DNA from: Vicinamibacterales bacterium
GTDB lineage: Bacteria > Acidobacteriota > Vicinamibacteria > Vicinamibacterales > SCN-69-37
Length of the DNA: 64,000 nt
Assembly (NCBI GenBank): GCA_035519535.1
Contig: DATIWF010000062.1
Span: 350-64,349 of the forward strand
Reading direction: 5' to 3'
In this document: positions 1 through 49,695 of the stretch, in pieces
Numbering within the stretch: the first letter of the stretch is position 1
Layout of the letters: every line of letters begins with the position of its first letter
Made by a program: the position numbers and the translations under genes
The notes under the pieces: generated by a model
Told to the model about the DNA's origin: nothing
What the model saw: the letters and a program-made list of their open reading frames with translations, nothing else
The model's database searches: none

Positions 1-59
1 GCGCACCCCTTCGCTCGGAGGAGTCGAAGCAACTCCTTACCGGTGAACGTCTTCGCCAT
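1..59 (-). CDS. hicA: HicA-like toxin, first ~19 codons only (gene continues beyond the left edge)
   Basis: The reverse complement starts at ATG (57-59) and reads MAKTFTGKELLRLLRAKGCA. This fits the N-terminal G-K-E-L-x-x-L-L-x-x-x-G pattern of HicA/YcfA mRNA interferases. It is edge-truncated, so it is absent from the ORF track. Confidence 0.4.
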   Translation of the reverse strand, partial: MAKTFTGKELLRLLRAKGC

Positions 60-284
60 GCGTCTATCAGACTAGACGATTATGACAGGCCTGAAAACGT
101 CCGGTCAAATTGACGCATGATCGCTCCGTCCTGCGATGGAGAACGCCTCTCTGACGAGCTAATCGTGAGCAGTCGACTGTCGTGAACAATCGGTGAACAA
201 TCGCCTCCCGAACACCGGATAACAAGAGGTTCCAACCCGAGCTAAACCACTGAAGAACCAACGAGAACCTATACCCGCGTTACG

Positions 285-332
285 CTACGAACCAGGAGGT
301 CGCAGGTTCGAGTCCTGCAGGGCGCGCCATCC
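285..332 (+). repeat. tRNA-Arg(ACG) 3-prime half fragment, att-type direct repeat copy 1
   Basis: CTACGAACCAGGAGGTCGCAGGTTCGAGTCCTGCAGGGCGCGCCATCC contains the anticodon loop CTACGAA (anticodon ACG), the 3-prime anticodon stem, T arm GCAGG-TTCGAGT-CCTGC, acceptor strand AGGGCGC, discriminator G and CCA. The complementary 5-prime half (GCGCCCT..., CCTGG) is absent upstream. It is 48/48 identical to 3797-3844. Confidence 0.7.
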
Positions 333-490
333 CTTTTCCATAGGCCCGTTGCAACAGCCGCCCGTAGTCCAGTTCGCCAGTATGGGCCGGGCCAATCACC
401 TTGGCGGGCTCCGGATACGCGATGGCGATCGCCATCGCCCGCATCGACTTCGTGATGTGGCGGCAGCGAACAGACGGGAAGTACGCGATG

Positions 491-1384
491 TTACTTAGAT
501 GTCCGCGGGGCACGCCCGCCGAAGATATCGATGTCGTCGAAAATGTTCCTTAGCGGCTGGTCGTTCAAGTCCCGTTCATCGTGCAAGGTCGGTACCTCGA
601 CCGCATCGATAGGCAACTCGATCACGCTGTTCGCGGTCTCGACGCTGATCCTTACCAGCCCTCTGCGAACTTCATCGCGGAGGCGTGGTGCTAGCAACTC
701 GCCGCGTGGCGATTGCCCGGCGAACCAAATCAAATCAAACAAGTACGGCGCTTCGGTCTTTGTCTTTGGCGGCGCGTGACCAGTGCGCGACCCGGAATAG
801 TCGGCGGGATTTCCCATAATCTCGCGCATTGGGGGCGACGACGCTGGTTTGAGCACTTGGAACAGGATGAAGCGGTTCGCGCCGCGGTCAATGCGCCCCT
901 CGTCGTTTAGCGGCGAAACATCCCAAGCCAAGACGCGGTACGGTAGGACCTCGCCGTACTTCTTGTCGATTTCGTCAAGCGTCAATCCATCCGGGACCAT
1001 GCTAACGAACTCATTGCCATTCAGCGGCAGTTCGCCGTCCACGTGCAGCGCCTTCACGTAACCGGGCAGATCGCCCGAGTTCGTGGCGTGAACGATCATC
1101 GCGATACCGTACTCCGTGAATGACTTCATTTCCGACGTCGCGGGCATCTCGACATGGTGAGTGGTCACGACTGGTCTCACAGCGAGTTGCAGCTTGGCCG
1201 GGCTTGGAGTCGTCAGCATCCGGTCCGCGATACTCCCAGCGATTCCCACACCTGCGAGAACACAAACGACGCGAAACCAATACTCGTGAGTTCGCTTAGG
1301 CGGTTTCTTCAGGCTGAGCCGAAACCCGATCAACAACACGAGGCCCTGGGCCACTAGCGTGACGACGAAGGCCGCAAGCGCCAT
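491..1384 (-). CDS. hypothetical membrane-anchored protein (island cargo)
   Basis: 297-aa ORF with two N-terminal hydrophobic segments (AAFVVTLVAQGLVLLIGF, VVCVLAGVGIAGSI). Its composition is more balanced and lower in GC than its surroundings. I recognise no family. Confidence 0.5.
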   Translation of the reverse strand: MALAAFVVTLVAQGLVLLIGFRLSLKKPPKRTHEYWFRVVCVLAGVGIAGSIADRMLTTPSPAKLQLAVRPVVTTHHVEMPATSEMKSFTEYGIAMIVHATNSGDLPGYVKALHVDGELPLNGNEFVSMVPDGLTLDEIDKKYGEVLPYRVLAWDVSPLNDEGRIDRGANRFILFQVLKPASSPPMREIMGNPADYSGSRTGHAPPKTKTEAPYLFDLIWFAGQSPRGELLAPRLRDEVRRGLVRISVETANSVIELPIDAVEVPTLHDERDLNDQPLRNIFDDIDIFGGRAPRTSK

Positions 1385-2040
1385 GCCGTAGAGTGTAGAC
1401 CCGCTCGACCGCTCGGACCGCTGCGATTGTCTCTTCCAACGTTGAACACGTCGCTCTTCCCATCAGTGCAGGGGGCAGGTCTTCCCGCCCGGTAAGACCT
1501 TTGATCCCCGCCGCCCCATCTTCGGCCAGGACCGACGACCGCCGGGCCGGACGACGGGACGGCCGGGGGCCGGGACCGGTCTGGCCGTCTCATTTGCTTT
1601 TGTTGCCACCACGCTCAGTTCTTGACTGACTAGTGGCAATGCACCAATTCGGAACATGGTCGCCATTGCTGAAGGCGTCAACGGAAACGTTTCTGGAAAC
1701 ACTGCGAGTGGTACGGATGCAATAACGTTCAACGTGTTTGTGGCTGGCAGCAATACCGGGGTTGGAGCACTGACTATTAATCGAACGTTTTCGATGCCCA
1801 AGTAGCATCGACTAACAGGCCGGTCAATGGTCACCGTCAGCACGGACGCCGCGCGAAATCGCTCCGCTTCGCCGCGCGACGAAGCCGACCAAGGTAAAGG
1901 GGGTGACCGCCGCAGGGCGCGCCAAATAATCACCGGGGGACTTCGTCCCGCGGACCCCCTAACTCGCTCTCTCGCAAGCCGCTTCGTCGGCTTGCTCCGT
2001 TCGCGGCGCTCGCTCGCGTTTGCTCGCTCGCGATGAATTT

Positions 2041-2277
2041 GCGCGCCCGTCTCCTCCATTTTGTGAACAATTGTGAACAACTCGCTCCCGACCTTGTCCG
2101 CAGCGGCCCGTAGAGAGCCGTCGAGGACCTGCGTGTAGACATTCAGCGTCGTATCGACGTTCGCGTGTCCCATGAGCTGAGCGGCCTGTTGTGGACCGGG
2201 GGTCCGACGTGGCGGATCTCGTGGTGCTGGTGGTCGAACCGGAGAAGAAAGCGGAGTAGCTGACGGATGCTGGAATC
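2041..2277 (-). pseudogene. tyrosine recombinase (integrase) C-terminal remnant, frameshifted and lacking its N-terminal part
   Basis: The minus strand reads AAQLMGHANVDTTLNVYTQVLDGSLRAAADKVGSELFTIVHK, the LGH...T..Y catalytic-Tyr box. Another frame just upstream reads LLRFDHQHHEIRHV (HxxRH box), implying a frameshift or deletion near 2195. The expected N-terminal ~250 codons are replaced at 2278 by the 181-bp repeat. Confidence 0.55.
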
Positions 2278-2458
2278 CAGGGTGCTAGAATCGGCTGCCT
2301 CTAGAGAGGTTGTCGAAATATGACGGGCGAGCCTTCCCGTACCGCACTTACCTCCGCTCGAGCTGACTCGCTGTCCTTCGTGTCGGCCGCCTTGGTTCTT
2401 GGCGCCGCGGCCGCAAGCATGCATCTCCACGGCAGTGGACTTGAACGAGTTGGCGCGA
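2278..2458 (+). repeat. 181-bp direct repeat, copy 1 (178/181 identical to 4573-4753)
   Basis: Hand alignment gives three mismatches and no indels. The block carries TGCTAGAAT (2283-2291) and an ATG at 2320 that opens a 58-codon ORF sharing its first 46 codons with the ORF at 4615. Confidence 0.9.
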
Positions 2459-2592
2459 ATCCGTGGCAATTCCAGCCGGGCAATCCGTCCGGTTAGAAGT
2501 GGACTTATACCCCCAACTCGAACAACTACCTGTATCACGTGATTTACGACGAATACGAAGGCCATGCGACAAGCCAGGAATAGTTCCGACCT

Positions 2593-3399
2593 ATGAGAGA
2601 AGCGACCAGTCGGCGTGCGTCTTCAGGCGACTCACGCAGCGCCATTACGAGGGCTGTCGGCCGAACCGGCCATCAGCCTCCACTGCTGGTGTGCGCGGGT
2701 CTGATCTTCGTGACAGGTGTCGTCTTTCGCGTGCCCGCTGGCCAAACGACGTTGCTCAAACACGCACCTCCGGAATCAGCTAGCCAGCGATCGGCAACGG
2801 CGCGCGGCCAAACACTGGTCGTCCCGGGCGGCGTATCGCCGGACGGTCGGTTCGAGGTACGTGTCATCGAGACGAGCAGCCGAAGTCCTTCCAACTATGT
2901 TGTGGCGATCATGGACGATCGAACTGGCCAGACACGGTCGGAACTGTCGTTGAGCGGCGGTGCATTTCAGTATCAGGATGCCACCAAAGTCGTCAAGGCT
3001 CTTTGGCATCCAAGCGGACGCGTCGTCGCACTAACGGACGCAGCCACCCAACATTCGCGAGAGCTCTACTTGTACGAAGTGACGTCAAACGACGTGGTTC
3101 AACTGAAGGTGCCTGACTACGTTCAAAATGCGCTTGGGCGCGTCGGCGCCGTAACGGTCGCGACCGCCTCTGTGACTGATCCACAAGCTTGGGACTCGGA
3201 CAGGCTCAAGTGCACGCTGACATTCAATGCCACACTGCCGAACCAACCAGGCGGGCGATCGCGGACGTTTCGCGCACCGTTCGTCTTGCGCTGGGTCCAT
3301 GGTCCGAACTCTGCAAGCCAGATTGTCCTCGAGAACATGGGGCGTCCGGTTCCTGTCGGTACACTCGTCCCAGTCGCGTTGTCGTTGCGTAGATTCTGA
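2593..3399 (+). CDS. hypothetical protein, probably exported (island cargo)
   Basis: 268-aa ORF with a hydrophobic segment (LLVCAGLIFVTGVVF) followed by a Ser/Thr/Val-rich beta-looking domain. I recognise no family, and the start is uncertain. Confidence 0.45.
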   Translation: MREATSRRASSGDSRSAITRAVGRTGHQPPLLVCAGLIFVTGVVFRVPAGQTTLLKHAPPESASQRSATARGQTLVVPGGVSPDGRFEVRVIETSSRSPSNYVVAIMDDRTGQTRSELSLSGGAFQYQDATKVVKALWHPSGRVVALTDAATQHSRELYLYEVTSNDVVQLKVPDYVQNALGRVGAVTVATASVTDPQAWDSDRLKCTLTFNATLPNQPGGRSRTFRAPFVLRWVHGPNSASQIVLENMGRPVPVGTLVPVALSLRRF

Positions 3400-3796
3400 A
3401 CGGCTGACGACCAAACGAAATGGATGCCGCGCTAGAGGCGCCTGGAGCGCGGTTGGCCGTGAACTAGATCAGCTCCTCAGTGCGCATCCCCTCAGCGACT
3501 GATACACAATGAAACGTTCTGCACAAGAACACAAAGCGCGGGCGTGAGCAAGCTGAAGCGGATGAGGAAGTTGTCCCCATCAGTTACGGTCGTAGCCGAA
3601 GGATCGCAGGTCACCGAATTACCCATCCGAGACGTTGTCCTTTTCTTGCCCTTTGAGTGCATCATGGCGCGGCTCAGACGGGCCAACCAGTGCATCTGGA
3701 CAATCGCAGCTCCCGCCTGAGTTTATGGCCTCAGTTGCGTTTTCGAGCTCAGACCGGCTCACCTCGGCAACCTGCGGCAATGGCGGCTCGTTCGGA

Positions 3797-3844
3797 CTAC
3801 GAACCAGGAGGTCGCAGGTTCGAGTCCTGCAGGGCGCGCCATCC
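3797..3844 (+). repeat. tRNA-Arg(ACG) 3-prime half fragment, att-type direct repeat copy 2
   Basis: Identical 48-mer to 285-332. The upstream sequence (…GGCTCGTTCGGA) cannot form the acceptor or anticodon stems, so this is not an intact tRNA. Confidence 0.7.
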
Positions 3845-3886
3845 TCCTTCGCTCGCGGTGTCGCAAGCGCGAGCTATGGAGGATGG
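3839..3886 (+). terminator. imperfect long hairpin immediately after the tRNA-Arg 3-prime end (tRNA-trailer hairpin family)
   Basis: CCATCCTCC TTC GCTCGCG gtgtcgcaa GCGCGAGC tat GGAGGATGG: the outer 8-9 bp and inner 6-7 bp pair. The trailer CCATCC..TTCGCTC.CG is also found after tRNA-Ser at 26534. Confidence 0.35.
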
Positions 3887-4172
3887 CGCGGACGTGCTTG
3901 TGCCCGCCGAAGCGGCCTGTTCGCGTAGGCGGGCAGGGCGCGCCAGTCGCCATCGCCCCGCCACCCAAACCGCGGGGCCAGGGCGAGAGGGCGCTCACGT
4001 TTGCTCGCGCCATCGCTCACAACCACGAACCGACAGCGCGGGGCGACGGCGGACGGCAAGCGAGCCGCCTGGATCTGCACGACCGCGTGTTTAGCATCCG
4101 CGAACACTCGTTCGCCTTGGCCTTGATGTCAGGAAATGCTAATTCTTGTTATACTGGCAGCGGAGGCACGAC

Positions 4173-4466
4173 GTGAACGTTTCCCTGACCCCCGAACTCG
4201 AGCGGCTCATCAATGACAAGGTCGAGAACGGGTCCTATCAGACAGCCAGCGAGGTCGTTCGCGAAGCCCTGCGACTGTTGAAACACCGAGACGAGGGTCT
4301 GGTCCAACTGCGCCGTGAGATCCAGGCCGGACTCGATCGCGCCGGACGCGGCGAGTACGCGGAGTACGATCGGCAGTCCGCATCCAAGCTTGGGGCACGC
4401 GTGAAAGCTCGTGGACGGAAACATCTCATCGCCCTAAAGGCAGGGAAGCGCGGCACGCCGCGGTGA
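4173..4466 (+). CDS. parD: ParD-family type II antitoxin
   Basis: VNVSLTPELERLINDKVENGSYQTASEVVREALRLLKHRDE fits the ParD antitoxin N-terminal pattern. GGAGG lies 6 nt upstream of GTG 4173 (the ORF track opens earlier, at TTG 4146). The stop overlaps the next start (GTGA). Confidence 0.75.
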   Translation: MNVSLTPELERLINDKVENGSYQTASEVVREALRLLKHRDEGLVQLRREIQAGLDRAGRGEYAEYDRQSASKLGARVKARGRKHLIALKAGKRGTPR

Positions 4467-4618
4467 AGCGTTTTCGTCTGTCGACCCTGGCCGAGGCCGA
4501 CCTTGACGAGATCTGGCTCTACGTCGCTCGAGACCGCTCGGTCGAGGTCGCCAATCGCCTGATTGACGACATCAGGGTGCTAGAATCGGCTGCCTCTAGA
4601 GAGGTTGTCGAAATATGA
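4463..4618 (+). pseudogene. parE: ParE-family toxin, C-terminally truncated remnant
   Basis: VKRFRLSTLAEADLDEIWLYVARDRSVEVANRLIDDIR matches the N-terminal third of ParE/RelE-fold toxins. The similarity ends at 4572, where the 181-bp repeat starts, and the frame stops after 51 codons. Confidence 0.6.
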
Positions 4619-4753
4619 CGGGCGAGCCTTCCCGTACCGCACTTACCTCCGCTCGAGCTGACTCGCTGTCCTTCGTGTCGGCCGCCTTGGTTCTTGGCGC
4701 CGCGGCCGCTAGCATGCATCTCCACGGCGGTGGACTTGAGCGAGTTGGCGCGA
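4573..4753 (+). repeat. 181-bp direct repeat, copy 2
   Basis: 178/181 identical to 2278-2458, in the same orientation and offset by 2295 bp. Confidence 0.9.
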
Positions 4754-4914
4754 GCCTCGCTGGGCCTGGAACCGGGGCTGTCATCTGGGCAATCGCACGT
4801 GCAGCAAGGGCCAAGCCCCGTCTTCCGATAGCGATGTTCTGGACTTCACTTGCTTTCCTCGCGATTGGGGTTCTCGTCAGCTACATCGAATGGTCAAGAC
4901 GCCTGGTCAGATGA
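4615..4914 (+). CDS. hypothetical small membrane protein (5-prime end lies inside the 181-bp repeat)
   Basis: 99-aa ORF with a hydrophobic C-terminal segment (MFWTSLAFLAIGVLVSYI). It sits 28 nt downstream of the TGCTAGAAT -10-like element. There is no homology evidence. Confidence 0.3.
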   Translation: MTGEPSRTALTSARADSLSFVSAALVLGAAAASMHLHGGGLERVGASLAGPGTGAVIWAIARAARAKPRLPIAMFWTSLAFLAIGVLVSYIEWSRRLVR

Positions 4915-5016
4915 CAGCCGGCTTCCTTTGGTTCCGCCGAGGGCGCGCCGCACTCAGCATGTTTCCTTTCTTGAGATCCGGATAGTTCAGCGACCGATGA
5001 AGGGTCGCGCGGGTCG

Positions 5017-26445: not shown

Positions 26446-26536
26446 GGAGAGGTACCGAAGTGGTCGTAACGGGGACGCCTCGAAAGCGTCTTGTCGGGTA
26501 ACCGGCACGTGGGTTCGAATCCCACCCTCTCCGCCA
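26446..26536 (+). tRNA. tRNA-Ser(CGA)
   Basis: Folded by hand: acceptor GGAGAGG/CCTCTCC, D stem CCG/CGG, anticodon stem GACGC/GCGTC with loop CTCGAAA (anticodon CGA), long variable arm (CGG-GTAA-CCG), T arm GTGGG-TTCGAAT-CCCAC, discriminator G, encoded CCA. Confidence 0.9.
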
Positions 26537-43702: not shown

Positions 43703-45634
43703 GTGTATCTTCCGCGCTTCGGGAACGCCGGATCTGTCAGGCGGCGCGTGACCGCCGTGGCGCTGGCCGCCGGTGCCGTTGGCTGCGGCCGGCCGGCGCC
43801 CGCGCCACCCGCCCCGGTCACATTCAACAGCGACATCGCGCCCATCGTGTTCGCACACTGCGCGCCCTGCCATCGACCGGGCGAGGTCGCGCCGTTCTCC
43901 CTGCTGACGTACGCGGACGCCGCCAAGCACGCGAGCGGCATGGCGGAAGAAACGCGCCTGCGTCACATGCCGCCGTGGCTGCCCGAGCCGGGCGAGTTCG
44001 CGATCCTCGGTGACCGGCGGCTTCGCGACAGTCAGATCGATCTGATCCAGCGATGGGTCGCCGGCGGCAAGCTCGAGGGCAACGCGGCCGACGCGCCGAA
44101 GGCGCCCGTGTTTCCCGGCGGGTGGCAGCTCGGTCAGCCCGACCTCGTGCTCGCGCCGGCGCGGCCGTACTCCCTCAAGCCGGGTCCCGAGGACGTGTAT
44201 CGCAACCTGGTGATCCACCCGTCGCTGAAGGCCGGCGTGTTCGTGCGCGCGGTCGAATTCAAGACCGGCGGCGCGCCGATTCATCACGCGGTGATTCGCG
44301 TCGACGCCACGCCCGCGTCGCGCGCCCGCGACGGTGCCGACGGGCAGCCGGGGTTCGACGGCATGAGCTGGCAGAGCACGCAGGATCCCGAGGGCAACTT
44401 CATCGGCTGGGCGCCCGGCCGCGGGCCGATCGTCTCGCCGGACCGCATGCCGTGGCGGCTCGAGCGCGGGGCCGATCTCGTCCTCGAACTCCACCTCATT
44501 CCCGGCGAGTCGCCCGTGAGCGTGCAGCCGACCATCGCGCTGTTCCTGACCGACCAGCCGCCCGCCGCGTCGCCGCTCACGCTCAAGATGGGCTCGAAAC
44601 TGATCGACATTCCCCCGGGCCAGTCCGACTACGTCGTCACCGACACGTACGAGCTGCCGGTGCCGTTCGATCTGCTGAGCGTTTATCCACATGCGCACTA
44701 TCTGGGCAAGGAGATGCGCGTCACCGCCGAGCTGCCCGGCGGCGTCGTCAAGACGCTGCTCTACATCAAGCAGTGGAGCTTCCACTGGCAGCAGGACTAC
44801 CGGTTCGCCGAGCCAATCGCGCTGCCCGCCGGCACGAAGCTCACCATGCGCTACACCTACGACAACTCCGAGGCGAACGGCGAGAACCCGCATCATCCCC
44901 CGGTGCGCGTGCGGCTCGGACCGAAATCGACGGACGAAATGGCGGAGCTCGGCCTGCAGGTGCTGCCCAAGTCGCTGGCGGACGCCGCACGGCTCGTGCA
45001 GTCGTTCGTCGATCGCGACGCGCAAGCCAACGTGACGCTGGGCGAGCTGCGCGTCAGGGAGCAGCCGGAGAACGCGGAGTATCAGCTGTTCCTCGGCGAC
45101 AGCTACATGGATGTGGACCGGTATGCCGAGGCGGTGCCGCATCTCGAGGCGTCGCTGCGGATCAACGAGCGATCGGCCAACGCGCACAACGACCTGGGGA
45201 CGGCGCTGATGCAGCTGGGCCGGGTGCCCGAGGCGTTGCAGCACATCCAGCGGGCGGTCGAGCTGGCGCCGCGCGACGAGCGGACCTATTTCAATCTCGG
45301 CAACGCGCTGAGCCACGCCTCGCGCGTCGATGAAGCGGCCGCTGCCTACGAGCGGTCGCTCGCGATCAATCCCGACTACGGGGAGGCGCACGTGAACCTG
45401 GGGTCGCTGCTGTTCTCGCACGGCCGCGTGCCGGAGGCGCTGACGCATTTCCGGCGCGCCGTGGAGCTGATGCCGAACTCGGCGGTGATCCACAACGATC
45501 TGGCGAGCGCCCTGGCGGCGTCCGGCCGCTATGCCGACGCGATGCAGCAGGTCCGGCAGGCGCTCGCGCTCAATCCCGACTTCGCGCCGGCGCTCGACAA
45601 CCTGAAGCGCTTGCAGCAGCTGGGCATCCGCTGA
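43703..45634 (+). CDS. haem-binding (CxxCH) redox-domain protein with C-terminal TPR repeats
   Basis: 643 aa with a lipoprotein-like signal (…AAGAVGCG) and DIAPIVFAHCAPCHRPGE (one CxxCH). The central domain has His-rich strands (APIHHAVI, YPHAHYLGKEMRV). The C-terminal ~190 aa are TPR repeats. The central-domain family is uncertain. Confidence 0.65.
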   Translation: MYLPRFGNAGSVRRRVTAVALAAGAVGCGRPAPAPPAPVTFNSDIAPIVFAHCAPCHRPGEVAPFSLLTYADAAKHASGMAEETRLRHMPPWLPEPGEFAILGDRRLRDSQIDLIQRWVAGGKLEGNAADAPKAPVFPGGWQLGQPDLVLAPARPYSLKPGPEDVYRNLVIHPSLKAGVFVRAVEFKTGGAPIHHAVIRVDATPASRARDGADGQPGFDGMSWQSTQDPEGNFIGWAPGRGPIVSPDRMPWRLERGADLVLELHLIPGESPVSVQPTIALFLTDQPPAASPLTLKMGSKLIDIPPGQSDYVVTDTYELPVPFDLLSVYPHAHYLGKEMRVTAELPGGVVKTLLYIKQWSFHWQQDYRFAEPIALPAGTKLTMRYTYDNSEANGENPHHPPVRVRLGPKSTDEMAELGLQVLPKSLADAARLVQSFVDRDAQANVTLGELRVREQPENAEYQLFLGDSYMDVDRYAEAVPHLEASLRINERSANAHNDLGTALMQLGRVPEALQHIQRAVELAPRDERTYFNLGNALSHASRVDEAAAAYERSLAINPDYGEAHVNLGSLLFSHGRVPEALTHFRRAVELMPNSAVIHNDLASALAASGRYADAMQQVRQALALNPDFAPALDNLKRLQQLGIR

Positions 45635-45649
45635 CGCGCGCTTGCGCGC

Positions 45650-46858
45650 TCACGCCCGCTGGCTGCCGCTCTCGACCGGTTCGGCGGGCAGCGGCTCCCA
45701 CGGATGCTCGCGCGTCAGGAACGCGACGACGCCGCCCTGGCGCTCGAGACCTTCGTCCGCGCCGACGAAATGCACCGGAATGTTGTGGCGCGCCGCGAGC
45801 AGCGCGATCTCCTGCCAGAGGTTGACCTTCTCACACGACGCCTGACAGTTCGGGCACGCCGTCTGGATGCGGTCGAAGATGGCCTCGCATCGCGTGCACC
45901 GCGATCCGATGGCCCCGCGGTCCGGCGTCATCACGACCGACCCTGGCCAGTTCACCTGACTCCCGCGGATCGCGTCGATGACGGCCTGCGGTCCGGCCGC
46001 GATCCCGCGGTGCTCGGCCAGCCGATCGCGCACCTGCGCCGTGAGGCGCCGGTCGTGCACGCCCATGGCGGCGGCCATCGCGTCGTGCACCTCCGTCTCG
46101 AGCCGCGGTGTCTTGCCGGTGAACGGGTGGGGCGCCTCGCACGCCACGCGGGCGGCCAGATGCACCGGCAGCTCCGAACGGATCCGTGTCAGCACGACGT
46201 GTTCGCCGAACAACATCAGGCCTTCGTACGTCTCCTCCGCCCAGGCCCGCTCGATCTCACGGACGAGCTCCTTGCGGTAGTGCAGCAGGTGGTCCTCGCG
46301 ATGCCGCGCGATGGTGGCCTGCTGCTTGCCCCAGGTCTCGCCCGCGGCCGCCTCGCGCCGAGGCACGCTCTCGGTGATTTCCTCGATCAGCCGCAGCGGC
46401 CCGCGGCCCGCCGTGTACAGGCGGCCATGATGGCTGTCGGTGTGCACCACCAGGTACCGACGCTGGCGGTGCAGGTACTCGAGCAGCGGGACGAGGTAGA
46501 TGGCCTCGTCGACGACGAGGCGGTTTGCGATTGGCGTGTCGAGCGTAAACGTCCGCACGAAATGACGAGCGAGGCTGACGAAGACCGCCATGCCCTTCGC
46601 CTGTTTGGCCGCCGGCCCCGACAGAATGCTGCGGACGAGATCGATGTTGCGCGAAAGCTCGCGACGCGCGTCGGGATCGTCTTTGAGCGCGGCCTCGACT
46701 TGCTGCAGCTCGCGGTTCAAGTGCTCGGACCACGTCGAGCGCACGCCTGACACCGACGTGTCGGCGTAGCAACTCACGATCAGACCCTCGCCCCGGGAAT
46801 GATCCATCAGCCACTGAGCGGCCGCGGGGCTCGGCACGTCGAGCAGGGTCGTTGCCAC
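45650..46858 (-). CDS. bacterial archaeo-eukaryotic release factor-like protein (baeRF1/Pelota-like) with a GKQ loop and Zn-ribbon insert
   Basis: YLVVHTDSHHGRLY is followed by ETWGKQQATIARHREDHLLHYRKELV, which lines up with the eRF1 segment GRGGQSALRFARLR.EKRHNYVRKV. The C-terminal domain has AAGPQAVIDAIRGSQV and a CTRC...CPNC insert. I chose GTG 46858 (AAGGAGG 5 nt upstream); the ORF is open from GTG 46891, which would overlap the ASCH stop. Confidence 0.65.
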   Translation of the reverse strand: MATTLLDVPSPAAAQWLMDHSRGEGLIVSCYADTSVSGVRSTWSEHLNRELQQVEAALKDDPDARRELSRNIDLVRSILSGPAAKQAKGMAVFVSLARHFVRTFTLDTPIANRLVVDEAIYLVPLLEYLHRQRRYLVVHTDSHHGRLYTAGRGPLRLIEEITESVPRREAAAGETWGKQQATIARHREDHLLHYRKELVREIERAWAEETYEGLMLFGEHVVLTRIRSELPVHLAARVACEAPHPFTGKTPRLETEVHDAMAAAMGVHDRRLTAQVRDRLAEHRGIAAGPQAVIDAIRGSQVNWPGSVVMTPDRGAIGSRCTRCEAIFDRIQTACPNCQASCEKVNLWQEIALLAARHNIPVHFVGADEGLERQGGVVAFLTREHPWEPLPAEPVESGSQRA

Positions 46859-46887
46859 GATGTCCTCCTTCGCCCGCGCGCGGGCGC

Positions 46888-47208
46888 TCACGACAGTCGC
46901 TCGATCTCGATCGCCACGGCGCCACTCGCCGCGACCGTCGCCTCATGACCGCCCTCGAGCAGCCGCAGCAGCTCGTCCGCGTCTGTCGCGTCCGGTGCGA
47001 TGGCCCGCCAGTTCTCGTGCTGGAGCAGGTCGCGGAATCCGGGGTAGTAGCGGATTCGCCGGACCTGCACGCGCGCCCCCGGGTAGCTCACGTGCTCCCC
47101 GGTGCGCAGGTCCGCCACGTCGTCGGTGGCGAGCCGCGCGTCGATCGTCTTCGTGCCGCCGCGGATCGCGTCTTCCCACTCGGGTCTGGTTGTCAGATGT
47201 CTGGGCAT
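46888..47208 (-). CDS. ASCH domain protein (PUA-like fold)
   Basis: 106 aa. W.DAIRGGTKTIDARL......LRTGEHV.....ARVQVRRIRYYPGFRDLLQHE fits the ASCH pattern (G.KT.E/D.R ... GD ... beta-barrel). GGAGG lies 6 nt upstream of ATG 47208. Confidence 0.6.
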   Translation of the reverse strand: MPRHLTTRPEWEDAIRGGTKTIDARLATDDVADLRTGEHVSYPGARVQVRRIRYYPGFRDLLQHENWRAIAPDATDADELLRLLEGGHEATVAASGAVAIEIERLS

Positions 47209-47228
47209 GGCTGACCTCCGATGTGACG

Positions 47229-47642
47229 TCAGGACGCCGCGTCCACGTGCAGCGGGCCCGCCGGCGTGCCGTGCGGGGCCAGCGCGAGCACGCGGTCGCG
47301 CACGGCTGGAACGCGCCGGCCGATCGCGACGAGGACGCCGTGGATCGTCCGAAACTCGCCAAGCGCCTCGCGGATTTGTCTCTTCGTGAGCGGGCCGTCC
47401 GGGAACCCCCGCCGGTGGTCGCTGACCTGCTGCCAGAGCCGATCCAGGGCGCTGACGGCCGCCTGAGCGTCGGCCGGACAGACGGCAGCAAACCGCCTAT
47501 GCTCGTTCATCACGTCGTCGAAGAGGTAGGCCGCAAGCCGATCCGGCCGGATGCTCTCGGCTTCGAGGAGCTCGTGAAAGGCGCCCCAGTAACCGTTCAG
47601 GAACTGGGTGAAGATTTCTTCGAATCGAGCGGAGTCGTCCAT
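47229..47642 (-). CDS. hypothetical helical protein (137 aa)
   Basis: ATG 47642 (MDDSARFEEIFTQFLNGYWGAFHELLEA...) with GAGG upstream. It ends 20 nt before the ASCH gene. I recognise no family. Confidence 0.5.
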   Translation of the reverse strand: MDDSARFEEIFTQFLNGYWGAFHELLEAESIRPDRLAAYLFDDVMNEHRRFAAVCPADAQAAVSALDRLWQQVSDHRRGFPDGPLTKRQIREALGEFRTIHGVLVAIGRRVPAVRDRVLALAPHGTPAGPLHVDAAS

Positions 47643-47771
47643 GCCAGGCCTCACCACTCAAAACGCAGAACCCGTACCAGCGGTCGCCCACGGGCCAGGC
47701 GTTCGGCGACCGGCCCACGGCCGGTGATGAAGCGGGGATTTTCGCGTTCGGCTCGGAAATCCCGGCCGCCC

Positions 47772-48623
47772 TCAGGCGGCGGCAAGGCCGTAGTAATGGG
47801 CGCACTCGTCCTCGCGCCCGCGCACGACGCGCCGCCCGGCGAGCGTGCCGTGGGAGGCCGTTACGACCGTCCACTGTCCGCCGCCCGTCCCGCGATCGCA
47901 GTAGAGGACGACCCAGTCGTGCGTCCTCTGCAGGCGATGCGCGCGCGCCGTGTTCGAGAAGAGCGCGGTGTAGTGGTGATCGCCCCGGCTCGTATGCAGG
48001 ATCGGCAGCCAGGCCTCGTGCGCGGGATTGAAGCGGCGCGGGGCGATCATCGTCAGCCGGCGGGCCGACGCGGCCTCGCGGTACTCGCGATCGACGTCGA
48101 GCAGCTCGGCGACCGGCGGCGGTGGCACCGCGTCGGGCGGGAGGGGTCGCACTCGCGCCAGCCGATGCGCCAGCACGTCGCGGATGGCATCGAGCCGCTT
48201 CGCGCCGAATCCCGCGATGTCTTCGAGACGGCCGTCATGGGCGGCCGCCTCCAGATCCTCGAGCGTTTCGAGCCCGAGCTCTTCGTGGAGCCGCTCAGCC
48301 AGGCGCGGGCCGATACCCGGCACCGAGCTCAGTCGCCGGATCGGGTCTGCCTCGCCCCGGAGCCGCTCGAGCATCGGGAAGTAACCCAGCCGGACGATGT
48401 CGCGGATCGCGCGCGCGAGGCCCTCGCCGACGCCGGGCAGCCGTTCGAGACCGGGAAGCCCCTCGAAGTCGAGCAGGGCGGACACGGGGTCGGTGAGCTG
48501 CCGAAGGGTGTGGGCGGCGCGCCGGTACGCGCGGACTCTGAACACGTTCGCGCCTTGTTCGGCGAGCAGTTCAGCGGCCTGGTCCAGCTTGCCGGCGACG
48601 AGCTCGTTCTCGCGCACGTTCAC
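47772..48623 (-). CDS. helix-hairpin-helix protein: PolX-type N-terminal (8-kDa/fingers) domain plus uncharacterised C-terminal domain, no polymerase palm
   Basis: AAELLAEQGANVFRVRAYRRAAHTL...LPGVGEGLARAIRDIV...VPGIGPRLAERL...IAGFGAKRLDAI shows three HhH motifs, as in the DNA polymerase X N-terminus. The C-terminal segment is ...RRFNPAHEAWLPILHTSRGDHHYTALFSNTARAHRLQRTHDWVVLY... GTG 48623 has GGAG 6 nt upstream (the track opens at TTG 48650). Confidence 0.6.
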   Translation of the reverse strand: MNVRENELVAGKLDQAAELLAEQGANVFRVRAYRRAAHTLRQLTDPVSALLDFEGLPGLERLPGVGEGLARAIRDIVRLGYFPMLERLRGEADPIRRLSSVPGIGPRLAERLHEELGLETLEDLEAAAHDGRLEDIAGFGAKRLDAIRDVLAHRLARVRPLPPDAVPPPPVAELLDVDREYREAASARRLTMIAPRRFNPAHEAWLPILHTSRGDHHYTALFSNTARAHRLQRTHDWVVLYCDRGTGGGQWTVVTASHGTLAGRRVVRGREDECAHYYGLAAA

Positions 48624-48711
48624 GCGTCGCTCCGGAGGTACTTGAAGCAAGACACGGGCCAGCGAACGCTGTTGCCGGGGTCGGTGGTGCGCCTACAGTG
48701 AACACGAGTCT

Positions 48712-48773
48712 AGAAAAATATGCCGGGATTATTTTTGCAAGATTACGCAAAAATAATCCCGGCATATTTTTCT
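48712..48773. terminator. perfect 27-bp inverted repeat with 8-nt loop, AT-rich; probable bidirectional terminator and/or operator
   Basis: AGAAAAATATGCCGGGATTATTTTTGC aagattac GCAAAAATAATCCCGGCATATTTTTCT. An A-tract and a T-tract sit at the stem base. The right arm overlaps the stop codon (48772-48774) of the MBL gene. It lies 60-90 nt upstream of the HhH gene start. Confidence 0.5.
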
Positions 48774-49695
48774 ATTTGTGCAGTTCGTCGTACGTCCCCG
48801 CGAGGGCGCGCGTCGTCAGTGGGCCCCGATCCTCGAAGCCGCGAAGGACGTCCTTCGCGTTGATGATCTCATCGCGCGAGCGCCCCGCCGTGATGCCGGC
48901 CCGGACGTAGTCGACGAGCGCCGTCAGGTAGTCGCGCATCTTCAGCACGTCGGCGCGCGTCCCCGTCACCGGCAGCTTCGCGGCCGAGTGGCCCCAGACG
49001 TACGTCGCGTCCGCCGGGTATTTCGCGGCGATTTGCTCCGTCACCGCGATCCAGTTCGTCGCCGACGCGCCGCCAGGCGTGCGGTCGACGTAGCACTGCA
49101 ATCCGCCCCAGACGAGATCGCCCACGTGGACGATATTCGCCTTCTCGAAGAACACGACGCAGTCGCCGCCGGTGTGCGCCGGCGTGAATTTCGTCGCATG
49201 CACCGTCTCGTCGCCGATGACCTTGTTCCACACGCCGTCGAACGTCGAATCCGGATAGACCTGCTCGACCGGCGACGCCGCCTGATCGTTGGCGATCTTC
49301 TGCAGCGCGGGCACGTTCGCCTGGGCGGCGATCGTCTTCGTCACGGGCTTGAACACCGGGTTGCCGCCGGTGTGGTCCGCGTGATGGTGGGTGTTGATGA
49401 GCACGTCGATCGGCCGGTGGCCCGTCTGGTCGCCGAGCCCGTCGAGGAACGCCTTCGCGGCGTCCGGATACTGGCTGTCCACGACCAGCACGCCGCCGGC
49501 GTTGACGAGGTACCCAATCGTCCCGCCGCGGCCGGTGAAGAAGCCGACGTTGCGGCGGATCGGCGTGAACACGGGCGTCCATGCGGGCGGCTGTTGCGGT
49601 GCGGCCGCGGGTGTGGTCTGCGCCCACGCCCGGCGACCGAGCGCGACCAGGCCGGCGCCGCCGGCTGACAGCACAAGAAACGACCGACGAGTCAC
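48772..49695 (-). CDS. MBL-fold metallo-hydrolase, Tat-exported
   Basis: 307 aa from GTG 49695 (VTRRSFLVLSAGGAGLVALG twin-arginine signal). HHHADH zinc motif (LINTHHHADHTGGN). The start overlaps the upstream stop (GTGA). Confidence 0.85.
   Translation of the reverse strand: MTRRSFLVLSAGGAGLVALGRRAWAQTTPAAAPQQPPAWTPVFTPIRRNVGFFTGRGGTIGYLVNAGGVLVVDSQYPDAAKAFLDGLGDQTGHRPIDVLINTHHHADHTGGNPVFKPVTKTIAAQANVPALQKIANDQAASPVEQVYPDSTFDGVWNKVIGDETVHATKFTPAHTGGDCVVFFEKANIVHVGDLVWGGLQCYVDRTPGGASATNWIAVTEQIAAKYPADATYVWGHSAAKLPVTGTRADVLKMRDYLTALVDYVRAGITAGRSRDEIINAKDVLRGFEDRGPLTTRALAGTYDELHK

What the first reader, a model, noticed from the sequence alone, without database searches (positions are those of the whole stretch)
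45650..48623. eRF1-like protein with a retained GKQ loop, tightly linked to an ASCH protein, behind a palm-less PolX-N-terminal HhH protein: candidate uncharacterised ribosome- or RNA-directed module
Seen: four same-strand genes. The HhH gene (48623-47772) is followed by a 129-nt gap, a 137-aa unknown (47642-47229), a 20-nt gap, and ASCH (47208-46888). The eRF1-like ORF is open from a GTG that overlaps the ASCH stop (GTGA at 46888-46891), and its best Shine-Dalgarno-supported start is only 29 nt downstream (GTG 46858 after AAGGAGG). The ~400-aa protein has the order strand YLVVHTDSHHGRLY, then ETWGKQQATIARHREDHLLHYRKELV. By eye this aligns with the eukaryotic eRF1 GGQ segment (GRGGQSALRFARLR.EKRHNYVRKV), so the catalytic Gln is conserved in a GKQ context. 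Its C-terminal domain carries an inserted CxxC...CxxC zinc ribbon. Established: bacterial homologues of aeRF1/Pelota (baeRF1 families) were defined computationally, and to my knowledge none has an experimentally established function. ASCH is a PUA-like RNA-binding fold, and one bacterial member is an N4-acetylcytidine amidohydrolase. Inference: the ASCH/baeRF1 pair is co-expressed and may recognise a modified or damaged RNA or a stalled ribosome and release or cleave a peptidyl-tRNA. The HhH protein and the unknown ORF may or may not belong to the same unit. The locus is insulated upstream by a striking AT-rich palindrome.
Basis: partly seen in the sequence, partly recalled or inferred. Interest (0 to 1): 0.7.

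Follow-up and report, generated by a model that had tools for sequence, protein, structure and literature searches.

The report
Balon-like ribosome factor with ASCH partner
A soil acidobacterium encodes a distant relative of the ribosome hibernation factor Balon next to a small RNA-modifying-type (ASCH) enzyme, and the two genes travel together in many genomes, a pairing I found reported in no paper I could search.

Summary
The sequence observation holds. Four same-strand genes sit at the stated coordinates, with the stated start codons, Shine-Dalgarno site, motif strings, zinc ribbon and upstream palindrome.

- The 402-aa protein is an aeRF1-fold protein of Pfam baeRF_family10.
- The 106-aa protein has an ASCH fold. 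Its subfamily is almost always found just upstream of this kind of baeRF gene: 37 of 45 metagenome loci, and all but two of those with enough downstream sequence.

Three points need correcting.
1. Bacterial aeRF1 homologues are no longer uncharacterised. Balon is a cryo-EM-defined ribosome hibernation factor, and its Msmeg1130 form is itself a baeRF_family10 member. It is the best structural match to this protein (TM 0.75/0.82).
2. "GKQ = GGQ" is imprecise. The Gln conserved across the wider clade is Q191, in a W-G-x-x-Q loop derived from GGWSQ. Lys189 or Trp, not Gln, aligns with the eRF1 catalytic Gln. A conserved Gln in family 10 was already noted in 2019.
3. The HhH gene belongs to a large independent family and is absent from the syntenic locus of the closest relative, so it is not part of the module.

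Best reading: a Balon-type A-site factor used in stress or dormancy, with a dedicated ASCH partner. Whether it hydrolyses peptidyl-tRNA is open.

The parts
45650..46858 (-). Balon-like aeRF1-fold protein of 402 aa (Pfam baeRF_family10). The ORF stays open upstream to the GTG at 46891; residue numbers in this report count from that GTG (413 codons).
   Evidence: PF18854 at 8.6e-15. The start is supported by the identical 402-aa protein P0001 and by homologue N-termini. AF2 model pLDDT 84. The best PDB fold match is ribosome-bound Balon Msmeg1130, 8v9l, TM 0.75/0.82. PDB sequence search: Msmeg1130 at 1e-9 over the full length.
46319..46333 (-). Codons for W187-G188-K189-Q190-Q191. This is the loop-to-helix junction of the middle domain, in the place of the aeRF1 GGQ loop.
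   Evidence: W, G and K are invariant and both Gln are >=90% conserved in 30 homologues. In the wider clade only Q191 persists. The motif sits at the N-terminus of helix 189-219, after a loop of lower confidence. Register against eRF1/aRF1.
45833..45898 (-). Zinc-ribbon insert in the C-terminal (Pelota/eRF1_3-like) domain: C332-x2-C335-x10-C346-x2-C349-x3-C353.
   Evidence: All five Cys are invariant. 96 of 102 full-length representatives carry CxxC...CxxC. Msmeg1130 Balon has no Cys at this insert.
46864..46870 (-). Shine-Dalgarno AAGGAGG, 5 nt before the GTG start at 46858.
   Evidence: Read directly from the sequence.
46888..47208 (-). ASCH-fold protein of 106 aa, the dedicated partner of the baeRF gene. 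Its octapeptide is G18-T-K20-T-I-D23-A-R25 (47157-47134).
   Evidence: Pfam ASCH is sub-threshold (E 0.0085). The AF2 model has pLDDT 90.5. Foldseek: PH0355 at TM 0.90 and rmsd 1.8, PF0455, PF0470, YqfB, ZmASCH. K20, D23 and R25 are invariant in 38 homologues. A baeRF10 gene lies downstream in 37 of 45 loci.
47229..47642 (-). 137-aa protein of unknown function, probably the first gene of the local transcription unit. It is lineage-specific and not part of the conserved pair.
   Evidence: No Pfam, NCBIfam, PADLOC or PDB match. A homologue at 63% identity occurs only in L019 and L027. It is absent from L020-L023 and from all more distant loci.
47772..48623 (-). 283-aa HhH protein (PolX 8-kDa and fingers-like N-terminus plus an unknown ~120-aa C-terminus). 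It is a neighbour and is judged NOT part of the module.
   Evidence: HHH_8 at 1e-18 and HHH_5 at 2e-13. It matches T. thermophilus PolX residues 15-160 only. The family is very large (7996 hits scored; the best 120 are >=62% identical) and sits in unrelated contexts. It is absent from the syntenic locus L019.
48711..48774 (.). AT-rich perfect palindrome (28-nt arms, 8-nt loop) that begins at the stop codon of the upstream MBL-fold gene. It is a likely bidirectional intrinsic terminator.
   Evidence: unique in the window, 0 expected by chance. (terminator-like on both strands: GC-containing stem followed by ATATTTTTCT).

Best explanation
The core of the locus is a conserved two-gene module, ASCH followed by baeRF10. 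Here it is preceded by a lineage-specific 137-aa gene.

The 402-aa protein is a divergent, zinc-ribbon-bearing member of the Balon/baeRF family-10 lineage of aeRF1-like proteins. It most likely binds the ribosomal A site with its three aeRF1-type domains. The N domain would face the decoding centre, the W-G-x-x-Q loop and the Arg-rich helix of the middle domain would face the peptidyl-transferase centre, and the C domain would face the factor-binding site. On this reading it serves in stress or dormancy as a hibernation-type factor. All of this placement is inferred.

The co-transcribed ASCH protein keeps the catalytic Lys and the acidic residue of ASCH amidohydrolases. It most likely acts on an RNA of the same machinery, either removing an N4-acyl group from a cytidine of tRNA or rRNA or simply binding that RNA, during the same response. 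This too is inferred.

What is shown: the folds, the family memberships, the motif conservation, the operon-like spacing, and the linkage across two phyla. What is inferred: ribosome binding, the timing, and the ASCH substrate.
For: Family and fold
- PF18854 is above its cut-off.
- The best sequence and fold matches among solved structures are ribosome-bound Balon Msmeg1130. Msmeg1130 is itself PF18854 at 124.7 bits.
- Balon proteins from Psychrobacter, mycobacteria and Synechocystis bind the A site of hibernating ribosomes (PMC10901736; bioRxiv 10.64898/2026.07.03.736309).

Neighbourhood
- Homologous loci carry stress and dormancy genes of the kind listed around Balon: Usp, Hsp20, BON/OsmY-like, CBS, a sigma-70-type factor, Lon and RtcB. 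A ~210-aa PRTase is present in about 30 loci.

Linkage
- The ASCH subfamily is small: 62 clusters, all >=56% identical.
- 37 of 45 loci have baeRF10 downstream on the same strand. The gap is 0-160 nt, or ~830 nt when a PRTase gene lies between them. Six of the remaining eight have too little downstream sequence to tell.
- Three of three further look-ups were also linked. Ten more pairs share a contig length.
- The pair occurs in Vicinamibacterales and in Planctomycetota, on deep branches of the baeRF tree.
- The two genes have co-diverged: r = 0.94, Mantel 0/2000.

ASCH catalytic residues
- The octapeptide is GxKxxDxR. In tested ASCH proteins the Lys is essential and Glu-to-Asp is tolerated (bioRxiv 10.64898/2026.02.27.708502).
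Against: - Identity to Msmeg1130 is only 17-18%.
- The three NCBIfam hibernation-factor models score 42, 34 and 22 bits against cut-offs of 480, 320 and 330.
- Balon uses a beta-hairpin to contact EF-Tu. Here a zinc ribbon sits at that insert.
- The near-invariant WGKQQATIARHRE segment is far more conserved than expected for a passive plug. Burroughs and Aravind reported poor loop conservation in the widespread baeRF families and singled out family 10 as possibly catalytic.
- No RaiA/HPF gene appeared among the recurrent neighbour families, although HPF is the neighbour most often reported for Balon/baeRF genes.
- Most baeRF10 loci from GTDB genomes lack ASCH (16 of 17), so ASCH is not needed by the family in general.
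- The ac4C-eraser activity comes from a preprint. I could not check whether this organism has an ac4C writer.
Confidence: 0.55

Rival explanations
1. The protein is an active peptidyl-tRNA hydrolase or rescue factor. It enters the A site of stalled or non-stop ribosomes and uses the conserved Gln (Q191, possibly helped by Q190 or K189) to release the nascent chain. The ASCH protein, and in some genomes a YbaK-like aminoacyl-tRNA deacylase, then clean up the released tRNA.
For: - The W-G-x-x-Q loop is invariant or near-invariant.
- The sister clade keeps GGWSQ in exact register with the GGQS of aRF1/eRF1. Its G, G, W, Q and the following Arg are invariant.
- This GGxSQ form is the one Burroughs and Aravind describe for the VLRF-1 families they predict to be catalytic. 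They also named family 10 as a possible hydrolase.
- A. pernix aRF1 itself reads GGQSQ.
- A tRNA_edit (YbaK-type) gene sits just upstream of ASCH in 8 loci. RtcB is adjacent in one locus.
Against: - The residue in register with the eRF1 catalytic Gln is Lys or Trp, not Gln.
- The second Gly of GGQ is essential in class-1 release factors (established knowledge; Frolova 1999, cited in PMC10901736), and it is not kept in canonical form here.
- Msmeg1130 keeps a Gln at the Q191-equivalent position, yet it is described as lacking GGQ and as a hibernation factor.
- The N domain has no NIKS tetrapeptide.
- The surrounding genes are general stress genes rather than rescue genes.
Confidence: 0.25
2. 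The pair is a conflict or defence system: a toxin-like shut-off of translation, triggered by phage or by effector damage to the ribosome. This follows the general proposal for baeRF-1 genes.
For: Burroughs and Aravind argue that baeRF-1 pathways arose in response to ribosome-targeting effectors and spread by lateral transfer. The pair is shared by two distant phyla.
Against: - None of the four proteins has a PADLOC hit.
- There is no homologue on 72,556 plasmids.
- The flanks carry no integrase, transposase or toxin-antitoxin genes; they are housekeeping and stress genes, syntenic with a relative.
- GC content across the locus matches the genome background.
Confidence: 0.07
3. The ASCH-baeRF10 adjacency reflects shared regulation only: two unrelated stress genes in one operon, with no common substrate or complex.
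For: 16 of the 17 GTDB genome loci with baeRF10 have no ASCH. Other stress genes (Usp, Hsp20, PRTase) also cluster loosely with baeRF10.
Against: - In the reverse direction the linkage is nearly obligate: this ASCH subfamily is essentially never found away from baeRF10.
- The order, the strand and the short spacing are all kept.
- The two genes co-diverge across phyla.
Confidence: 0.13

Closest known systems
Balon, Msmeg1130 type (M. smegmatis MSMEG_1130; PDB 8v9j/8v9l; NCBIfam NF052288)
   Same: Same Pfam family, PF18854, and the same three-domain architecture. It is the best fold match, aligned over the full length with TM 0.75/0.82 and rmsd 3.6 A. It has a Gln at the Q191-equivalent position. 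The gene neighbourhoods are of the same stress-gene type.
   Different: Only 17-18% identical, and far below the NF052288 cut-off (42 against 480 bits). Msmeg1130 has no zinc ribbon and no W-G-x-x-Q or GGWSQ loop; it reads AGQMREQRQA. No ASCH partner is mentioned in the main text of the Balon paper.
Archaeal and eukaryotic class-1 release factors aRF1/eRF1 (e.g. PDB 4af1, 3agk, 1dt9)
   Same: The fold is shared. The sister-clade profile hits aRF1 at 1e-32 over the full length. In that alignment PxxH-x2-GG, Ser, and the Arg and aromatic residues of the following helix are all in register. A Cys4 insert lies in the C domain where Burroughs and Aravind place the aeRF-1 zinc ribbon.
   Different: There is no canonical GGQ: Lys189 or Trp occupies the catalytic-Gln position, and the loop is 4-5 residues longer. 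There is no NIKS. The host presumably keeps RF1/RF2 for termination, as Burroughs and Aravind note for all bacteria that carry baeRF-1.
VLRF-1 / Vms1-ANKZF1 clade of aeRF1-like peptidyl-tRNA hydrolases
   Same: The loop is of GGxSQ form, with the conserved Gln two residues after the GG. That is the form seen in the GGWSQ sister clade, and the window's W-G-K-Q-Q is an expanded version of it.
   Different: The Pfam family and the domain context differ: VLRF-1 proteins lack the Pelota-type C domain. The window protein did not list acVLRF1 among its Pfam hits at E <= 1.
Stand-alone ASCH proteins: Pyrococcus PH0355/PF0455/PF0470, E. coli YqfB, T. thermophilus TTHA0113
   Same: The same ~105-aa beta-barrel plus helices fold (TM 0.90 to PH0355). 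The G-x-K-x-x-acidic-x-R octapeptide keeps its Lys and Arg. Nineteen ASCH proteins, including six from Pyrococcus kukulkanii, remove ac4C from tRNA in a 2026 preprint.
   Different: Asp replaces Glu/Thr/Ser in the octapeptide. The Pfam score is below the gathering threshold. This subfamily is specifically tied to a ribosome-factor gene, a link the ASCH preprint does not describe (its text has one 'operon' mention, about another enzyme). No paper in the searched library holds both the ASCH and the aeRF1 or hibernation terms.
Eukaryotic TRIP4/Rqt4 ASCH domain in the ASC-1/RQT complex
   Same: An ASCH domain working beside ribosome-surveillance machinery. The preprint lists ribosome quality control among the roles suggested for the TRIP4 ASCH domain; that TRIP4/Rqt4 is a subunit of the RQT complex is from my own knowledge.
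   Different: This is an analogy only. There is no helicase or ubiquitin-binding partner here, and no homology beyond the fold.

Membership tests
Pfam PF18854 baeRF_family10 (aeRF1 superfamily) | HMM score at or above the gathering threshold on the middle (RNase-H-like) domain | tested here: met
   55.7 bits against 27.1, residues 132-272. Precomputed PF18854 on all of the 120 best homologues listed.
aeRF1/Pelota/Balon fold | Three-domain N-M-C architecture that superposes on solved members | tested here: met
   AF2 pLDDT 84 and pTM 0.76. 45 PDB matches at E <= 1e-3, all Balon, aRF1, eRF1 or Pelota/Dom34.
Balon hibernation factors as curated by NCBIfam (NF052288, NF052289, NF052287) | Equivalog HMM score above the curated cut-off | tested here: not met
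   42.1 against 480, 34.1 against 320, and 22.3 against 330 bits.
Balon (functional definition, PMC10901736) | Absence of the canonical GGQ and NIKS motifs | tested here: met
   The translation contains no GGQ or NIKS string. The loop reads AAGETWGKQQ.
Balon (functional definition, PMC10901736) | EF-Tu-binding beta-hairpin insertion in the C domain | tested here: inconclusive
   There is an insert in the same stretch of the C domain, but it is a Cys4 zinc ribbon. Burroughs and Aravind consider the two-strand insert a possible degenerate zinc ribbon.
Balon (functional definition, PMC10901736) | HP motif at the decoding centre, lasso loop, bL27 trap; binding to the A site of hibernating 70S ribosomes | not testable with these tools
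This needs superposition on 8rd8/8v9j or an experiment.
Class-1 release factor aRF1/eRF1 | GGQ with the catalytic Gln in register, and a NIKS-type stop-codon motif | tested here: not met
   In the helix-anchored register, K189 falls at eRF1 Q185. In the sister clade Trp aligns with the catalytic Gln of 4af1, 3agk and 3e20. There is no NIKS.
ASCH domain (PF04266) | Pfam score at or above the gathering threshold | tested here: not met
   17.2 bits against 21.2, E 0.0085.
ASCH domain (structural definition) | ASCH beta-barrel plus helices fold | tested here: met
   pLDDT 90.5. PH0355 at TM 0.90/0.87 and rmsd 1.8 A, then YqfB, ZmASCH, TTHA0113 and EF3133.
ASCH domain (motif) | Octapeptide G-x-K-x-x-[E/T/S]-x-R | tested here: inconclusive
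   G18, K20 and R25 are present and K20, D23 and R25 are invariant, but position 23 is Asp. Glu-to-Asp kept partial or full activity in TthASCH and EOLA1.
ASCH ac4C amidohydrolase / tRNA ac4C eraser | Hydrolysis of N4-acetylcytidine as a nucleoside or in tRNA | not testable with these tools
   This needs an enzyme assay. Whether the genome has a TmcA/TmcAL-type writer could not be checked from 64 kb.
Family X DNA polymerase (for the HhH gene) | Palm and thumb nucleotidyltransferase domains (plus PHP in bacterial PolX) | tested here: not met
   Only residues 19-163 match PolX residues 15-160. Pfam gives HhH domains only. NF006375 scores 58.5 against 426 bits.
Known anti-phage defence systems (PADLOC-DB v2) | A hit to any defence-system protein model | tested here: not met
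   0 families for all four proteins at E <= 0.1.

The most novel reading that the evidence does not exclude
The ASCH-baeRF10 pair, joined in some genomes by a YbaK-type deacylase and a PRTase, is a catalytic 'ribosome and tRNA reset' module. On this reading the Balon-like factor has kept a working Gln loop (W-G-x-x-Q, from GGWSQ) and releases peptidyl-tRNA or nascent chains from ribosomes that are being shut down or are stalled. Its dedicated ASCH partner would strip an acyl modification from the tRNA or rRNA involved. The GGWSQ/WGxxQ zinc-ribbon clade would then be a bacterial aeRF1-type hydrolase lineage, intermediate between aRF1 and the non-catalytic Balon, with an RNA-modification eraser as cofactor.
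Probability: 0.2. Interest if true: 0.8.

Novelty: new variant of a known kind. Interest (0 to 1): 0.5.

Why it matters
Balon-type factors were recognised only in 2024. How they are loaded, how they are removed, and whether any of them is catalytic are still open questions.

This locus points to two testable things.

First, there is a large zinc-ribbon clade whose middle-domain loop (GGWSQ, and here W-G-x-x-Q) is still in register with the release-factor GGQ loop. The 150 best representatives listed are almost all of this kind, out of 2683 detectable relatives. That makes it the natural place to ask whether a bacterial aeRF1 homologue hydrolyses peptidyl-tRNA.

Second, a small ASCH protein is found essentially only next to such a gene, in two phyla. 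ASCH proteins have just been proposed as tRNA ac4C erasers, so the pairing offers a concrete physiological setting in which to look for their substrate: ribosome shutdown or rescue.

If the link is only regulatory, the locus is an ordinary stress operon.

Tried and rejected
- hhalign of the family alignment against a single human eRF1 sequence gave only a spurious 31-column match. I replaced it with hmmsearch of the middle-domain profile and with a PDB search using the sister-clade profile.
- The PDB sequence search with the close-family profile A1 reached only Balon, not aRF1 or eRF1.
- The literature search for 'baeRF1' found nothing until it was spelled 'baeRF-1'. One search was wasted on 'ASCH' as a word start.
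- Supplementary gene-neighbourhood data of Burroughs and Aravind are not held. I therefore cannot exclude that ASCH appears there.
- HhH as part of the module: rejected.
- The 137-aa ORF as a conserved member: rejected. It occurs only in the two closest loci.
- Defence-system reading: no support.
- The ORF-clustering cluster 6 ('tRNA_edit', 17 loci) was contaminated by low-complexity chaining. I rely on the tblastn count of 8 loci instead.
- No RNA family other than one tRNA-Ser is present in the window.
- The 109-aa ORF upstream of P0013's gene could not be verified as ASCH because no DNA was returned.

Full report
OBSERVATION

The window is high-GC DNA (about 69%). The identical ASCH and HhH proteins are held in NCBI as Vicinamibacterales MAG proteins, on a contig of 79,850 bp.

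- HhH at 48623-47772, starting at a GTG after GGAG.
- A 129-nt gap, then a 137-aa ORF at 47642-47229.
- A 20-nt gap, then a 106-aa ORF at 47208-46888.
- A large ORF open from the GTG at 46891, whose GTGA overlaps the stop of the 106-aa ORF.

AAGGAGG (46870-46864) lies 5 nt before the GTG at 46858. That GTG is the real start. An identical database protein has 402 aa (P0001), and homologues begin MATTV or VATTV at this point. The quoted peptide strings and the Cys-rich insert are present. I number residues from the upstream GTG (413 codons).

THE LARGE PROTEIN

It passes the gathering threshold of Pfam baeRF_family10 (PF18854, 55.7 bits). NCBIfam gives weak, far sub-threshold matches to three families named 'ribosome hibernation factor': MSMEG_1130, Rv2629 and AOC03_06830. 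These are the Balon proteins of Helena-Bueno et al. 2024 (PMC10901736). Balon is an aeRF1-like protein that occupies the A site of hibernating ribosomes. It lacks NIKS and GGQ and carries an HP motif, a lasso loop, a bL27 trap and an EF-Tu-binding beta-hairpin.

A profile of 30 homologues finds Msmeg1130 (8v9j) at 1e-9 over the full length, and Rv2629 at 8e-5. The AlphaFold model has pLDDT 84 and pTM 0.76. Its best PDB match is ribosome-bound Msmeg1130 (8v9l, TM 0.75/0.82, rmsd 3.6 A over 388 columns). Next come aRF1, eRF1, Psychrobacter Balon and Pelota.

I rebuilt the Msmeg1130 sequence from the HMMER alignment and scanned it against Pfam. It is itself a strong baeRF_family10 member (124.7 bits), whereas Rv2629 belongs to family 2. 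So the Pfam family of the window's protein already contains a cryo-EM-characterised hibernation factor.

THE 'GKQ' LOOP

Within the close family, W187, G188, K189, A192, T193, I194, R196 and R198 are invariant, and Q190 and Q191 are at least 90% conserved. The motif sits at the junction between a lower-confidence loop (174-188) and a long helix (189-219). That is the topological position of GGQ in eRF1.

A library-wide profile search found 2683 representatives at E <= 1e-3. I aligned the best 150 to the family model:
- Position 190 varies: S in 41, Q in 25, E in 19, A in 11.
- Position 191 is Q in 87 of 126.
- Close relatives read WGKEQ, WGKRQ, WGYSQ, WGTEQ and WGKDQ.
- 39 full-length representatives carry GGW[S/A]Q.
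- 96 of 102 full-length representatives have a CxxC...CxxC ribbon.

An alignment of 34 GGWSQ-type proteins has G, G, W, Q, the following Arg and four Cys invariant. As a profile it hits Msmeg1130 (7.5e-38), aRF1 4af1 (1.2e-32, full length), aRF1 3agk, Rv2629, many eRF1 chains and Pelota. The printed alignments put 'VPgRHkqGGWSQaRyqRH' against 'VPGKQRKGGQSAQRFARL' (4af1), 'VPGKHKMGGQSQRRYERI' (3agk) and 'PKKHGRGGQSALRFARL' (S. pombe eRF1). So the GG is in register, Trp takes the place of the catalytic Gln, and the clade's invariant Gln lies two residues later.

The window's (A/S)G-E-x-W-G-K-Q-Q is a four-residue-longer version of this loop. A direct profile-to-eRF1 alignment of the window's own family (8.2 bits) anchors A195/R196/R198/Y205 on eRF1 A191/R192/R194/Y201. 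That places K189 at Q185. I checked the human eRF1 sequence used here against PDB entries first.

Hence 'catalytic Gln conserved in a GKQ context' is imprecise. The conserved residue is Q191, at +2, in the GGxSQ form that Burroughs and Aravind describe for VLRF-1 families. The same paper had already singled out baeRF-1 family 10 as keeping 'a well-conserved glutamine' and as a possible peptidyl hydrolase. It also describes the zinc ribbon as the insert of classical aeRF-1, replaced by a two-strand insert in many baeRF-1 families. Msmeg1130 keeps a Gln at the Q191-equivalent position but has no ribbon.

THE 106-AA PROTEIN

Pfam ASCH is below threshold (17.2 against 21.2 bits). The model is confident (pLDDT 90.5), and it matches PH0355 at TM 0.90 and rmsd 1.8 A. 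It then matches PF0455, PF0470, the E. coli ac4C amidohydrolase YqfB, ZmASCH and TTHA0113.

Its octapeptide is G18-T-K20-T-I-D23-A-R25, with K20, D23 and R25 invariant in 38 homologues. A 2026 preprint reports that 19 diverse ASCH proteins remove ac4C from tRNA. It finds the Lys and the acidic or Thr residue essential, and Glu-to-Asp tolerated. The catalytic residues are therefore plausibly intact here.

LINKAGE

It fails clearly.

- Closest relatives. In the closest relative (77% identity, L019) the order is S9 peptidase, MBL-fold, 136 aa, ASCH, baeRF, TPR, PPK, as in the window but without the HhH gene. In a 73%-identical relative (L020-L023) the flanks are entirely different (histidine kinases upstream, Lgt downstream), yet ASCH-baeRF persists with a 19-nt gap.
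- Size of the ASCH subfamily. It is small: 62 clusters, all at least 56% identical. Ten of its members share contig lengths with baeRF homologues.
- Look-ups. Three look-ups of long contigs all showed ASCH upstream of baeRF10.
- Metagenome scan. A scan seeded with the ASCH alignment returned 45 loci. 37 have baeRF10 downstream on the same strand, either 0-160 nt away or ~830 nt away with a PRTase gene in between. Six of the other eight have too little downstream sequence to tell.
- Taxonomic spread. The pair occurs in Vicinamibacterales and in Planctomycetota (Isosphaeraceae, L012), on deep branches of the baeRF tree.
- Co-divergence. The pairwise identity matrices of the two genes correlate (r = 0.94, Mantel 0/2000). 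Shared species phylogeny contributes to that figure.

The converse does not hold. Only 1 of 17 GTDB genome loci with this baeRF type has ASCH. ASCH is thus a dedicated accessory of a subset of these factors.

WIDER NEIGHBOURHOOD

Across about 70 loci the recurrent neighbours are:
- a ~210-aa phosphoribosyltransferase, in about 30 loci, including loci that lack ASCH;
- tandem Usp, Hsp20, BON, CBS, PRPP synthetase and a DLH-type hydrolase;
- a sigma-70-type factor, Lon and dodecin;
- RtcB;
- a YbaK-type tRNA_edit gene just upstream of ASCH, in eight loci.

Several of these (Hsp20, OsmY-like proteins, sigma factors, RtcB) are among the stress-operon neighbours the Balon paper lists. No RaiA/HPF gene appeared among the recurrent neighbour families. 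The four proteins have no PADLOC hits, and the factor has no plasmid homologue.

THE OTHER TWO GENES AND THE PALINDROME

The HhH protein matches PolX only over its 8-kDa and fingers part. It belongs to a very large stand-alone family of ~283 aa: 7996 hits were scored, and the best 120 are at least 62% identical. That family sits in unrelated contexts. It is missing from the syntenic L019, where the sequence GGCCGGGATTTCCGAG... follows the MBL stop directly. In the window the same sequence follows the HhH stop. The HhH gene plus the palindrome therefore look like a ~1-kb indel.

The 137-aa protein has no detectable family and is found only in L019 and L027.

The palindrome (48711-48774) is perfect and unique in the window. 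It starts at the MBL stop codon and scores as an intrinsic terminator on both strands. It most simply terminates the MBL-fold gene.

MECHANISM

The best-supported reading (about 0.55) is a Balon-type A-site factor for stress or dormancy with a dedicated ASCH partner. Fold, family, neighbourhood and linkage are shown. Ribosome binding, timing and the ASCH substrate are inferred.

The main rival (about 0.25) is that this zinc-ribbon, Gln-loop lineage is catalytically active in peptidyl-tRNA release, as proposed in 2019. The extreme conservation of the loop and the YbaK and RtcB neighbours favour it. The off-register Gln, the non-canonical second Gly position and the behaviour reported for Msmeg1130 argue against it.

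The defence reading and the purely regulatory-linkage reading are minor.

NOVELTY

The fold, the family and the retained Gln are known, and relatives have been characterised. What I could not find in the literature available to me is the ASCH partnership. It is not mentioned in the main texts of PMC6514570 and PMC10901736. No paper in the searchable library holds both terms. The supplements are not held.

I therefore rate the finding a new variant of a known kind, of moderate interest.

Noticed in passing
window 1-5000: GC content is 0.585-0.615 against ~0.69 for the rest of the window. The three long ORFs here (491-1384 minus, 1463-2173 minus, 2593-3399 plus) have no Pfam match. This may be a foreign or orphan-gene island.
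   Followed up: partly
window 48711-48774 and 47732-47766; L019 5029-5100: The palindrome's core GCCGGGATT recurs in an imperfect hairpin-capable sequence right after the HhH stop. In syntenic L019 that sequence directly follows the MBL-fold gene's stop. The HhH gene plus the palindrome therefore look like a ~1-kb insertion or deletion.
   Followed up: partly
L001, L003, L006, L008, L009, L013, L015, L018, L024, L031, L035, L042-L058 and others: A ~210-aa phosphoribosyltransferase (PF00156) lies next to this baeRF type in about 30 loci, with or without ASCH. A PRPP synthetase and a DLH-type hydrolase are often nearby. The window itself has no copy.
   Followed up: partly
L012, L024, L025, L028-L031, L037: A YbaK/ProX-type aminoacyl-tRNA editing-domain gene (PF04073) sits immediately upstream of ASCH, giving the order tRNA_edit, ASCH, (PRTase), baeRF10.
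   Followed up: partly
L025 5359-6523; L024 5437-6086: The baeRF10 gene of L025 is split into 228-aa and 140-aa ORFs, and the PRTase of L024 into 124-aa and 92-aa ORFs. These are frameshifts, pseudogenes or assembly errors.
   Followed up: no
L068 962-1328; L069 5001-5367: ASCH-like residues 3-90 abut baeRF residues 81-143 with only 2 nt between the matches. This may be a deletion remnant or a fusion.
   Followed up: no
PDB 3agk (A. pernix aRF1), alignment: This archaeal release factor reads GGQSQRRYER. It carries Gln both at the canonical GGQ position and at the +2 position that is invariant in the bacterial GGWSQ clade.
   Followed up: no
window 45635-45649: The TPR gene (43703-45634, plus strand) and the baeRF gene (stop at 45650, minus strand) converge with only 15 nt between their stop codons. 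This short stretch holds a small GC palindrome (GCGCGCAAGCGCGC) and no terminator-like site.
   Followed up: no
window 26446-26536: A single tRNA-Ser(CGA) is the only RNA gene detected in the 64 kb.
   Followed up: yes
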